Assembly (NCBI RefSeq): GCF_031769215.1
Contig: NW_026783133.1
Location: 1-64,000 of the forward strand
DNA from: Ylistrum balloti
Lineage: Eukaryota
Length of the DNA: 64,000 bases
Reading direction: 5' to 3'
Positions 32,901-35,099 of this stretch are shown one piece after another. Position 1 is the stretch's first letter; every line of letters starts with the position of its first letter. The position numbers were made by a program.

Positions 32901-35099
32901 CAGCGATGTTATCTACACCCAATATGAATGGAACTCTTGGAACTCTAAAGTGCTTCTTGTACATGTGTCTATTACAACGGCCGTAGTAAGAAACTCAGAA
33001 GATGTATTGGATCATAGAATTTTGCCGACATTCGTTTCAAAAAGCTATTGAGTGTTGTATGAATACCAGAGATATACTATACATACAAGTATACGTAAAA
33101 AAACCTGCATAAAGATACAGAGATGGGTTACTGGTCCTCGGATAGAAAATGACAGTACTGAGTGAACACATACATTGATGCGAAAGTATGGCAGTGCCGA
33201 CCAATGAGTAAATGTGCGAAACATTTGTTTGGACCAATAAACAACGTTTACACACAGCGGGGTTGTAGCTGTGGAAACAGGATGATTATCAATGCAACTT
33301 AGTAAACCCACAGAATGAATGTCCGGTATTAATTCCTTAATGTTTTTGGTAAGGAATTCACCCATTATCACTTGATTTGCCTTCCTTCATATAAGTTGGT
33401 ACATATGGTCACGATTCCGAGACATATAGAGTTTTCATGTCTTTACACACTTTCCTCCATTATTTGAATTTGTGGTGATCACTGATAGTTTGTTAGGCTC
33501 TAACTTCAAACTCATCATTAGTTTTCAAAACTTACAGAAACTTTCTACCATATTTGTTTTGGGTACATACGTACTCATTGCAAGATAGTTTGACATGTCC
33601 CGTAATCAACATATATGCATGCAGTTTCCTAATGTATTCCTACCTGGTATTCGTGGGTTGTGATATCAATGTGCTTTTTTGGACCATATACTAGTATCAT
33701 AATTACAGCTGCCTGTATTATATTTTCCATGTTAGTAGAATAATACTTGAAAGCATTCCATAATTTTGAAAAAGAAAAAAAATTCTGGTAAACCATGTCG
33801 ATTAAAAGCAATCAAGCGACTAATATTGTGAACAAGAAAAGCTAAGAATCATATCATCGTTTTCCTAAATGAACCGTGTTCATTCTTGTAATGATGACCT
33901 TATAAATATTCAAAGTCGTCAAGTTTATCCAAAATCATGATATGTAGCATAGATTTCTTAGCTGAAGTGATCCAAATGACGTAAAGTCATTAACGAAGAC
34001 TTGTAAAAGAAATCCTCAGTAGTGTTTTTACATTTGACATTAATTCCCTTTTTATCAAAACGTGACATTATCATTGCATATTCCAACACTATGTAAAATA
34101 AAAAAATTAAATTAGGGAAGAAACTTTACATAAAGGGAGAAATGATCTGTACTCGTAAGGATTATCCTGAATAATTCATAGTCTACACAACAGTGTGAAA
34201 TGTACTCACATCATCTACCATCTATATATGAATATTATAGGGATATCTTAATAAACAAGATCGATGTGTGTTATGGAGGGAAAATATTGAATTGTTTTAT
34301 ATTATAGGTAATATATTATTGCTAACCTTTATTACAGTTTGAATGTTTGAGAGATGCAGCATCCGGCGGTCACATAGATATTGTTAGACTACTACTGGAC
34401 AGGGGAGCTGATCCAAATAAGGTAAGTTTCCTTTTATTCATCTTCTTATACATGTTTTATTTATTTTTCTCAAGACATAAAATGAATTCTCTTGTTTTTC
34501 AATATCTTTTTGTTTGTAAATACATAAACTTCCGTCCCATGTCTTCAATCTCTACATTTTGCCTGCTACATGCTAATAGATTGAGCGTGGTTGGTGCTTA
34601 TTGTTGTTTTCATGCAAAAAAGATACAGGCACTTCCAAACATAACGAAATTAAGTCATCGTTTAACATCATGTAGTCAGATTTATTATCTTCAATCTATT
34701 CCATTACTGGAGAAATTTGTAAGCAGGTGTAAGATTGGTTTTGTAATCAATGTTATAGTTAGCATAAGTCTCTAATGATAAAGCTTAACAACTGTCATCG
34801 TTGTTGTCGTCGATACATTCATGATAAAAAAAAATCATCATACACATACACAGCATACATATGTATTATTATTTTGAAAACACATAGACCACTGGCACCA
34901 CGACAGTATGCCGGTCTTTCACCTGACATGTTAAACTATTTAGATTTCCGGGTTTAGTTTATATAATTTAATGTTGTTAGTCAGAGTCTACGTTATGTTC
35001 ATGTTGCTTTCTTTGTAGAGGTACCACACTGAAGTATCAGCATCTCATGAAACCACGTTCTCTCTCTTTCTCTGTATGCGTATGTCTGTTGGTGAGTGC

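What the first reader, a model, noticed from the sequence alone, without database searches (positions are those of the whole stretch)
34338..34421. All three differences between exons 1 and 2 are nonsynonymous and clustered
Seen: G>E (1649/34342), S>R (1659/34352) and H>D (1660/34353) fall within 12 nt, with no synonymous change. By eye, 1-1644 versus its paralog shows only a handful of differences, and the immediate flanks look identical. All three changes alter charge just before or in helix 1, where exon 3 also differs (SEALAK) while the helix-2 core is conserved. Inference: diversifying selection or a micro-conversion from another cassette. Three sites cannot prove selection.
Basis: partly seen in the sequence, partly recalled or inferred. 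Interest (0 to 1): 0.68.

Follow-up and report, generated by a model that had tools for sequence, protein, structure and literature searches.

The report
Three surface changes between duplicated ankyrin exons
Two recently duplicated 84-base exons, each encoding one short ankyrin-type repeat of an invertebrate gene, differ only at three amino acids on the exposed face of the first helix; this is what a newly copied binding repeat starting to diverge would look like, but three sites cannot prove selection.

Summary
Exons 1645-1728 and 34338-34421 differ at exactly three bases (G/A, T/A, C/G), giving G/E, S/R and H/D with no synonymous change. They sit in a 479-nt stretch that is otherwise identical. 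The exons lie in an 11.3-kb duplicated block with 0.76% substitutions (0.29% near the exon).

The 3:0 ratio carries no weight: chance gives it with P=0.42. Two of the changes are adjacent bases, and similar clusters occur in the non-coding parts of the block. Two weaker signals remain:
- The exon is more diverged than its intron flanks (Fisher p 0.002-0.044; 0.015-0.105 with adjacent changes merged).
- The three residues are unit positions 2, 5 and 6. These rank 5th, 1st and 4th of 28 in variability across 141 homologous units (P=0.003).

Each exon encodes a 28-residue ankyrin-like unit without the β-hairpin. The closest named relatives with such 28-residue arrays are scallop ANK-Roc-COR proteins.

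No conversion donor was found in the window or in 413 stored proteins. Outgroups suggest that both copies changed.

My reading is early divergence of the exposed surface of a duplicated repeat. Selection is plausible but unproven. The case is ordinary in kind. The contig is not human.

The parts
1645..1728 (+). Exon 1: 84-nt, phase 0/0 cassette encoding one 28-residue ankyrin-like unit (FGCLSH...). Acceptor ag at 1643-1644, donor gt at 1729-1730.
   Evidence: Pfam Ank 30.0 bits against a cut-off of 21.1, residues 4-27 matching model positions 6-29 of 33.
34338..34421 (+). Exon 2 (the finding): paralogous 84-nt cassette (FECLRD...). Variant bases at 34342, 34352 and 34353.
   Evidence: Pfam Ank 28.0 bits against a cut-off of 21.1.
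62358..62441 (+). Exon 3: an older paralogous 84-nt cassette (SEALAK...), with the same length, phase and splice signals.
   Evidence: Pfam Ank 26.9 bits. Against exons 1 and 2, pN is 0.29-0.31 and pS is 0.73-0.76.
56187..56270 (+). Decayed fourth cassette (pseudo-exon). It has the same acceptor context, two in-frame stops (56199-56201, 56250-56252) and a lost donor. I used it as an outgroup.
1..11744 (+). Copy A of the young duplicated block. It runs off the left end of the window.
   Evidence: 98.1% identity; 86 substitutions in 11,306 aligned columns and 22 indels.
32696..44042 (+). Copy B of the young duplicated block. Offset about 32.7 kb, same orientation.
35953..36899 (+). High-divergence tract inside the block (copy A: 3255-4226). 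It holds about 40 of the 86 substitutions and shows that the block is a mosaic.
   Evidence: 94.4% identity over 3200-4300, and no third copy in the window.
43654..44288 (.). 64-nt satellite in which the 98% block ends (copy A: 11365-11744).

Best explanation
The window is a transposon-rich stretch of long introns in an invertebrate gene, probably molluscan. In this gene the N-terminal ankyrin-type solenoid is built from one 84-nt, phase-0/0 exon per 28-residue repeat. This repeat is a short ankyrin unit that lacks the five β-hairpin residues and the TPLH motif.

A tandem segmental duplication of about 32.7 kb copied one such exon. The 11.7 kb around it is now 99.2% identical, while the rest of the unit is only 80-93% identical. 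This points to later homogenisation or a second, younger event.

The two exon copies are genuine paralogues that have begun to diverge at positions 2, 5 and 6. These sit on one face of helix 1 (i, i+3, i+4), together with positions 9 and 10. The scaffold positions (L4, A7, A8, G11, H12, V16, L19, L20, G23, A24) are untouched. I read this as protein-level filtering: purifying selection on the scaffold, and changes retained and possibly favoured on the exposed, ligand-facing face. Each added repeat would then contribute a new patch of binding surface.

Shown here: the three differences, the exon structure, the ankyrin match, the 28-residue period in homologues, the variability ranking, and the excess of exon over flank divergence.

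Inferred: that the exons are spliced in series, that the protein carries Roc-COR downstream, that the face binds ligand, and that selection rather than tolerance fixed the changes.
For: Differences and the identical surrounding stretch.

Exon more diverged than its intron flanks: 3/84 against 9/3102, p=0.0033; p=0.002-0.044 over four flank sizes.

Ankyrin identity: all three exons score above the Pfam Ank cut-off, covering model positions about 6-29 of 33.

The 28-residue period occurs in named scallop proteins:
- P0014 and P0045 were the only 2 of 120 first hits with 28-spacing.
- All 40 hits to the Roc-COR part of P0045 come from four scallop species.
- Roc scores above its Pfam cut-off and COR-A just below it.

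Variability of unit positions:
- 44 distinct in-register units from 9 scallop proteins rank positions 5, 9, 10, 6, 13, 2 highest.
- 141 distinct units from 36 proteins rank 5, 9, 10, 6, 2 highest.
- P(three codons all in the top five of 28) = 0.003.
- Among close unit pairs in scallops, 62 of 85 differences fall at positions 1, 2, 5, 6, 9, 10 and 13. These are 19 non-independent pairs. In 6 independent closest pairs the count is 14 of 25.

Fold: the AlphaFold model of P0014 has pLDDT about 90 over the repeats, with helix 1 at about 3-10 and helix 2 at 13-21. The best PDB matches are DARPins and ankyrins. Alignment to DARPins puts our positions 9-10 on the DARPin columns that vary between repeats in the printed alignment (AAxxGH).

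Both copies are intact, whereas a fourth cassette has decayed. pN/pS is about 0.4 against exon 3.
Against: - There are only three sites, and two are adjacent, so they may be one event. P(3/3 nonsynonymous) = 0.42.
- With adjacent changes merged, the exon-versus-flank test weakens to p = 0.015-0.105.
- Multi-base clusters are common in the non-coding parts of the same alignment, including 10248/10260/10263 and 3551-3562. One complex mutation landing on tolerated residues is therefore a real alternative.
- The finding was picked by eye after the fact.
- High variability at positions 2, 5 and 6 fits relaxed constraint as well as positive selection.
- There is no transcript, read or population evidence.
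- I found no protein of this gene itself among the 413 stored proteins (best exon match 83% over 24 residues).
- No Roc, COR or death exon lies in the window.
- The structural model is of a homologue, from a single sequence. I had no coordinates, so exposure is inferred from helix periodicity and not measured.
Confidence: 0.45

Rival explanations
1. Neutral chance. One or two ordinary mutational events, including a tandem or complex multi-base mutation, hit the exon and survived because positions 2, 5 and 6 tolerate almost any residue. No positive selection is involved.
For: P(3/3 nonsynonymous) = 0.42. There are four adjacent-pair substitutions and several clusters of 3 or more in 12-16 nt in non-coding parts of the same alignment. 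With adjacent changes merged, the exon-versus-flank p is 0.015-0.105, and against the whole block it is 0.026. The positions are the least constrained in the family. The finding was selected after the fact.
Against: Local neutral divergence is only 0.29%, so about 0.24 changes are expected in 84 nt; P(>=3) = 0.002 and P(>=2) = 0.025. Outgroups place two changes on exon 1 and one on exon 2, which argues weakly against a single event.
Confidence: 0.33
2. Mosaic gene conversion. Either a short tract was copied into one exon from a cassette outside the window, or the 11.7-kb block was homogenised and a short patch at the exon escaped.
For: The block is a mosaic. A tract with sharp edges (3255-4226) is about 4-6% diverged between flanks at about 0.3%, and the rest of the 32-kb unit is only 80-93% identical. 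The block ends in a satellite.
Against: No donor is in the window: the k-mers over the variant sites are unique on the + strand, there is no third copy of the exon region, and exon 3 and the decayed cassette differ in the tract. No homologous unit has RD or SH at positions 5-6 (LRDAA 0 of 278 proteins). The outgroup states are mixed between the copies. A patch falling exactly on three tolerated codons needs its own coincidence.
Confidence: 0.12
3. Artefact. The two blocks are the two haplotypes of one locus laid in tandem by the assembler, or the three bases are consensus errors. The differences would then be allelic or unreal.
For: Identity of 98-99.7% with many small indels is in the range of allelic divergence in highly heterozygous invertebrates (general knowledge). 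No read data were available.
Against: There are no N runs anywhere in the window. The copies are 32.7 kb apart, and the 21 kb between them is collinear with the following sequence at only 80-93%, with rearrangements, which is not allelic. Three errors confined to 12 nt of a 479-nt stretch that is otherwise identical, all keeping the frame open and all at tolerated residues, are unlikely.
Confidence: 0.08
4. Selection at the RNA level. The changes alter exonic splicing enhancers of a tiny exon set in 30-kb introns. Two of the three differences (1659, 1660) are purines in exon 2 where exon 1 has pyrimidines; the third (1649) is G/A. Together they give exon 2 GAA and GAGAGA runs.
For: Read directly from the sequence. 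Exon 3 is also purine-rich in this stretch.
Against: I ran no test of splicing. The coincidence with the protein family's most variable residues is explained better at the protein level.
Confidence: 0.02

Closest known systems
Scallop ANK-Roc-COR(-Death) proteins, annotated only as 'uncharacterized protein' or 'ankyrin repeat domain-containing protein 50-like' (Argopecten irradians P0014/P0045, Pecten maximus LOC117333139 P0243, Mizuhopecten yessoensis, Ylistrum balloti)
   Same: They have N-terminal arrays of 28-residue ankyrin-like units with the pattern xxAL xx AA xx GH xx IV xx LL xx GADPNx and no hairpin. Unit matches to the window's exons reach 60-75% identity. The same positions are variable.
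   Different: None is the window's own gene: the best match is 73-75% over 24-26 residues. No Roc, COR or death exon lies in the window. Their exon structure could not be checked, because no eukaryotic genome collection was open. Their function is untested.
Canonical ankyrin repeat (Pfam PF00023) and designed ankyrin repeat proteins (DARPins)
   Same: Helix-turn-helix unit with the AAxxGHxxIVxxLLxxGAD core. All three exons score above the Pfam cut-off. The homologue model matches DARPin and ankyrin structures. The variable positions 9-10 coincide with the DARPin columns that vary between repeats in the printed alignment; that these are the positions randomised in library design is recalled.
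   Different: The unit has 28 residues, not 33. Model positions 31-33 and 1-2 (the β-hairpin) are absent, and TPLH is replaced by GCLS, ECLR and EALA. The two residues after the conserved Leu (the canonical His and the following residue) are here the variable positions 5 and 6.
Brown-alga LRR-ROCO genes with one repeat per exon (PMC11378527; abstract read)
   Same: According to that abstract, each repeat motif is encoded by its own exon, with exon shuffling and diversifying selection, in a ROC-COR family proposed as immune receptors. This is the same logic as one cassette per repeat unit.
   Different: The repeats there are LRRs, not ankyrin units, and the organisms are algae, not animals. The link of the window's exons to a ROCO gene is inferred from homologues only.
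Paralogue divergence against homogenisation in tandemly duplicated recognition genes (e.g. plant NLR LRRs, MHC); recalled general knowledge
   Same: Near-identical flanks, with differences concentrated at solvent-exposed residues of the repeat.
   Different: Those cases rest on many sites and on population data. Here there are three sites in one pair.

Membership tests
Ankyrin repeat (Pfam PF00023) | Profile score at or above the curated cut-off | tested here: met
   30.0, 28.0 and 26.9 bits against a cut-off of 21.1 for exons 1, 2 and 3.
Ankyrin repeat (Pfam PF00023) | 33-residue unit with β-hairpin or loop and a TPLH-type start of helix 1 | tested here: not met
   The exons cover model positions about 3-30 only, and 28-residue spacing is seen in homologues. 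TPLH is replaced by GCLS, ECLR and EALA.
Ankyrin repeat (Pfam PF00023) | Stacked helix-turn-helix solenoid fold | tested here: met
   Tested on homologue P0014 only: pLDDT about 90 over the repeats with two helices per 28 residues. Foldseek top hits are DARPins and ankyrin-B/ankyrin-1, E down to 6.6e-12. The window's own exons were not joined or folded.
ROCO (Roc-COR) proteins | Roc GTPase and COR domains in the same gene | not testable with these tools
   All 38 tblastn hits of the 41 family proteins fall on the three ANK exons, and none elsewhere in the window. Homologues P0045 and P0243 have Roc at 35.2 and 37.2 bits (cut-off 27) and COR-A at 21.0 and 34.7 bits (cut-off 35.3).
Positively selected sites (dN/dS > 1) | Significant excess of nonsynonymous over synonymous change | tested here: inconclusive
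   Nd = 3, Sd = 0, N = 63.5, S = 20.5. P(3 of 3) = 0.42. pN of 0.047 exceeds the flank divergence of 0.0029.
Interlocus gene conversion tract | A donor copy carrying the same tract | tested here: not met
   None in the window and none among 141 homologous units. The rest of the genome was not searchable.
Tandem segmental duplication | Two collinear copies in the same orientation with shared indel-rich non-coding sequence | tested here: met
   1-11744 against 32696-44042 at 98.1%, with 86 substitutions and 22 indels. Whether both copies exist in the organism (read support) was not testable.

The most novel reading that the evidence does not exclude
The exons are modules of a germline-encoded recognition array. 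In this reading a bivalve ROCO-type (ANK-Roc-COR-death) sensor gene has a hairpin-less 28-residue ankyrin solenoid assembled from single-exon cassettes. The cassettes are multiplied by 30-kb segmental duplications, partly homogenised by conversion, and driven apart by selection at the helix-1 face (positions 2, 5, 6, 9, 10). This would be an animal, ankyrin-based counterpart of the one-LRR-per-exon ROCO receptors of brown algae, possibly with cassette choice by alternative splicing.
Probability: 0.15. Interest if true: 0.6.

Novelty: new member of a known kind. Interest (0 to 1): 0.3.

Why it matters
If the divergence is driven by selection, it would catch a repeat-protein binding surface just after a repeat was added. 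It would also mark an uncharacterised, lineage-expanded ANK-Roc-COR family of bivalves as a candidate recognition family, with a defined set of specificity positions (2, 5, 6, 9, 10) that could be tested. If the divergence is neutral, this is a routine young exon duplication. On present evidence it is a small, suggestive observation and not a discovery.

Tried and rejected
- Exon alone as query: the 28-residue exon was too short for the search for homologous proteins, which needs at least 40.
- Unspliced read-through ORF and the ANK part of P0045: both searches were swamped by generic 33-residue ankyrin proteins. Only 2 of 120 hits, and 3 of 239 stored proteins with two or more 28-residue spacings, had the 28-residue period.
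- The window's own protein: not found in any search. The best match was 83% over 24 residues among 413 stored proteins.
- The representative search with P0243 added unnamed proteins with 28-residue units, but no closer relative.
- Donor search: unique k-mers, no third copy of the exon region or of the hot tract, and no RD or SH unit.
- Local repeats around the exon: only short chance matches.
- No tRNA and no Rfam family at gathering scores.
- Pfam found nothing at E <= 0.01 in 25 of 30 ORFs or exons tried. Apart from the three exons, the only hit was a sub-threshold Phage_integrase match on the two copies of one ORF.
- Literature: two searches for bivalve or mollusc ROCO-ankyrin families, one for ankyrin exon duplication, conversion and selection in bivalves, and one for '28-residue repeat' with ankyrin. 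None returned a paper on this family or on hairpin-less 28-residue ankyrin units. These were listings only, apart from PMC9334734 (passages) and PMC11378527 (abstract and outline).
- The three exons were searched separately. A joined (spliced) model was not built, searched or folded.
- Not checked: reads, transcripts, other copies in the same genome, and the exon structure of the scallop genes.
- Human origin rejected: CpG observed/expected is 0.73 at 33% G+C, and the nearest named proteins with the 28-residue unit are molluscan.

Full report
**What the window is.** The 64-kb window has 33% G+C, no N and a CpG observed/expected ratio of 0.73. I take it for an invertebrate contig, not a human one. 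It contains no tRNA and no Rfam family. Most of it is repeats and decayed mobile-element ORFs.

A profile of the repeat unit run over all six frames finds only three intact coding pieces, all on the + strand: 1645-1728, 34338-34421 and 62358-62441. Each is 84 nt, follows a pyrimidine-rich ...cag acceptor, and is followed by gtaagt or gtgagt. The frame gives 28 codons in phase 0/0. A fourth copy at 56187-56270 keeps the acceptor context but has two in-frame stops and no donor.

**Checking the observation.** The two exons differ at exactly three bases:
- 1649/34342, G/A, Gly/Glu
- 1659/34352, T/A, Ser/Arg
- 1660/34353, C/G, His/Asp

There is no synonymous difference, and the last two bases are adjacent.

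The exons lie in a duplicated block, 1-11744 against 32696-44042, with 86 substitutions in 11,306 aligned columns (0.76%) and 22 indels. Divergence across the block is very uneven. There are 3 substitutions in 1-1644, none in 5613-8026, and about 40 in 3255-4226. Around the exon the copies are identical from 1407 to about 1885 apart from the three changes.

**Is it more than chance?**
- The 3:0 ratio is not. 74.8% of single-base changes in this exon are nonsynonymous, so three of three has P = 0.42.
- Clustering alone is not. The alignment has ten overlapping triplets of three changes in 12 nt, against 0.25 expected, most of them non-coding. It also has four adjacent-pair substitutions.
- What remains is that the exon is more diverged than its own introns. 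It has 3/84 against 9/3102 in 1-3200 (p = 0.0033). Over flanks of 250-1600 nt, p is 0.002-0.044, or 0.015-0.105 if adjacent changes count once. Against the whole block p = 0.026.
- These values are nominal, depend on the flank chosen, and were computed on a case picked by eye.

**What the exons encode.** All three score above the Pfam ankyrin cut-off and cover model positions about 3-30 of 33. The five hairpin residues are missing, and TPLH is replaced by GCLS, ECLR and EALA.

I searched exon by exon and did not build, search or fold a joined model. The exon alone was too short for the large protein search, so I used the unspliced read-through ORF. That search was dominated by ordinary 33-residue ankyrin proteins, but two named Argopecten irradians proteins stood out as the only 2 of 120 hits with a 28-residue period.

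Searching with the non-ankyrin part of one of them gave 40 hits, all from four scallop species. Pfam on two members finds Roc above its cut-off and COR-A just below it. Several others carry a death domain in the precomputed lists (the name of that Pfam accession is recalled).

So arrays of hairpin-less 28-residue ankyrin units exist in annotated proteins. This supports, without joining the exons, the idea that such exons are read in series. None of the 413 stored proteins is the window's own product: the best match is 83% over 24 residues. No Roc, COR or death exon lies in the window.

**Where the three residues sit.** A single-sequence AlphaFold model of homologue P0014 is confident over the repeats (pLDDT about 90). 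It puts helix 1 at unit positions about 3-10 and helix 2 at 13-21. Its best structural matches are DARPins and ankyrins.

Variability across homologous units:
- In 44 distinct in-register units from nine scallop proteins, the most variable positions are 5, 9, 10, 6, 13 and 2.
- In 141 distinct units from 36 proteins the order is 5, 9, 10, 6 and 2.
- The invariant or near-invariant positions are 4, 7, 11, 16, 19 and 23.

Positions 2, 5, 6, 9 and 10 follow an i, i+3, i+4, i+7, i+8 pattern, which is one face of helix 1. Positions 4, 7, 8 and 11 form the opposite, packed face. This is an inference from periodicity, because I had no coordinates. Positions 9-10 align with the DARPin columns that vary between repeats in the printed alignment; that these are the randomised library positions is recalled.

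The chance that three codons all fall among the five most variable of 28 is 0.003. Close unit pairs within scallop proteins also differ mainly there: 62 of 85 differences fall at positions 1, 2, 5, 6, 9, 10 and 13 in 19 non-independent pairs, and 14 of 25 in six independent pairs. The window's pair therefore follows a family-wide pattern. That pattern fits either relaxed constraint or diversifying selection at these sites.

**History of the duplication.** The young block ends inside a 64-nt satellite. The remaining approximately 21 kb of each unit is collinear with its partner at only 80-93%, with insertions and an inverted segment. A tract with sharp edges at 3255-4226 is 94.4% identical between the copies.

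The locus is thus a mosaic. The likeliest history is an older tandem duplication whose exon-bearing part was later homogenised or re-duplicated. This makes conversion plausible in principle, but I found no donor:
- The k-mers across the variant sites are unique.
- There is no third copy of the exon region or of the hot tract in the window.
- No homologous unit has RD or SH at positions 5-6.

Polarising with exon 3 and the decayed cassette gives the following:
- A at 1649 and at 1659 is shared by exon 2 and both outgroups, so Gly and Ser in exon 1 look derived.
- C at 1660 is shared by exon 1 and the decayed cassette, while exon 3 has A, so Asp in exon 2 may be derived.

If this is right, the adjacent pair is two events in two lineages. 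That argues against both a single complex mutation and an imported E..RD tract. The outgroups are about 40% diverged, however, so this is weak.

**Verdict.** The differences are real in the assembly. They lie on the exposed, most variable face of a short ankyrin unit and spare the scaffold.
- My best reading (0.45) is early surface divergence of a newly duplicated repeat, retained and possibly favoured by selection.
- A neutral reading follows closely (0.33): one or two events on tolerated residues.
- Conversion or patchy homogenisation (0.12), assembly or haplotype artefact (0.08) and splicing-level effects (0.02) remain.

Older comparisons show that the cassettes are constrained (pN/pS about 0.4 against exon 3), and one cassette has decayed, so the intact ones are probably in use.

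The closest published analogue I found is the one-LRR-per-exon ROCO family of brown algae with exon shuffling and diversifying selection (PMC11378527, abstract). A paper on the Aplysia immunome notes Roc-COR domains joined to immune domains in a mollusc (PMC9334734, passages). Four literature searches returned nothing on this scallop family or on 28-residue ankyrin units. Supplements were closed and might hold gene lists that I could not see.

**What stayed open.** Still unchecked are read support, transcripts, other cassettes of the same genome, and the exon structure of the scallop genes. The case is ordinary in kind: a new member of a known kind. Interest is 0.3.

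Noticed in passing
window 56187-56270 (+): A decayed fourth ankyrin cassette. It has the same acceptor context as exons 1 and 2, in-frame stops at 56199-56201 and 56250-56252, and a lost donor. It lies in 843 nt that unit B has where unit A has about 40 nt.
   Followed up: partly
window 3255-4226 vs 35953-36899: A high-divergence tract with sharp edges inside the 98% duplication. It holds about 40 of the 86 substitutions and is 94.4% identical over 3200-4300. There is no third copy in the window and no Pfam hit. It suggests mosaic conversion or incomplete homogenisation.
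   Followed up: partly
window 11365-11744 and 43654-44288: A 64-nt satellite with short internal palindromes, 5.9 copies in block A and longer in block B. The young duplicated block ends inside it.
   Followed up: no
window 10555-10848 (-) and 42847-43140 (-): An ORF fragment with a weak Phage_integrase (tyrosine recombinase) match (E 0.0029, 17.8 bits, below the cut-off of 27.1), next to the satellite. It is probably a decayed mobile element and is identical in both blocks.
   Followed up: no
window 25040-27107 vs 55404-53336: A 2.07-kb pair in inverted orientation at 98.6% identity, with older partial copies at 12571-13083, 46554-47292 and 52136-52702. This is a repeat family with one very young pair.
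   Followed up: no
window 7519-7862; 2410-2467 vs 35092-35167: 344 nt are present only in copy A, and the (GT)n microsatellite differs by 18 nt between the copies. Both copies have therefore changed independently since the duplication.
   Followed up: no
window 29738-32544 (+): A run of ORFs of 64-162 codons just upstream of block B that looks like a decayed retroelement. Pfam found nothing at E <= 0.01.
   Followed up: partly
protein P0288 (unnamed, representative library): In-register 28-residue ankyrin units (17 of them) also occur in a protein with NACHT/NPHP3_N and winged-helix domains. The hairpin-less short unit is therefore not confined to the scallop Roc-COR family.
   Followed up: partly
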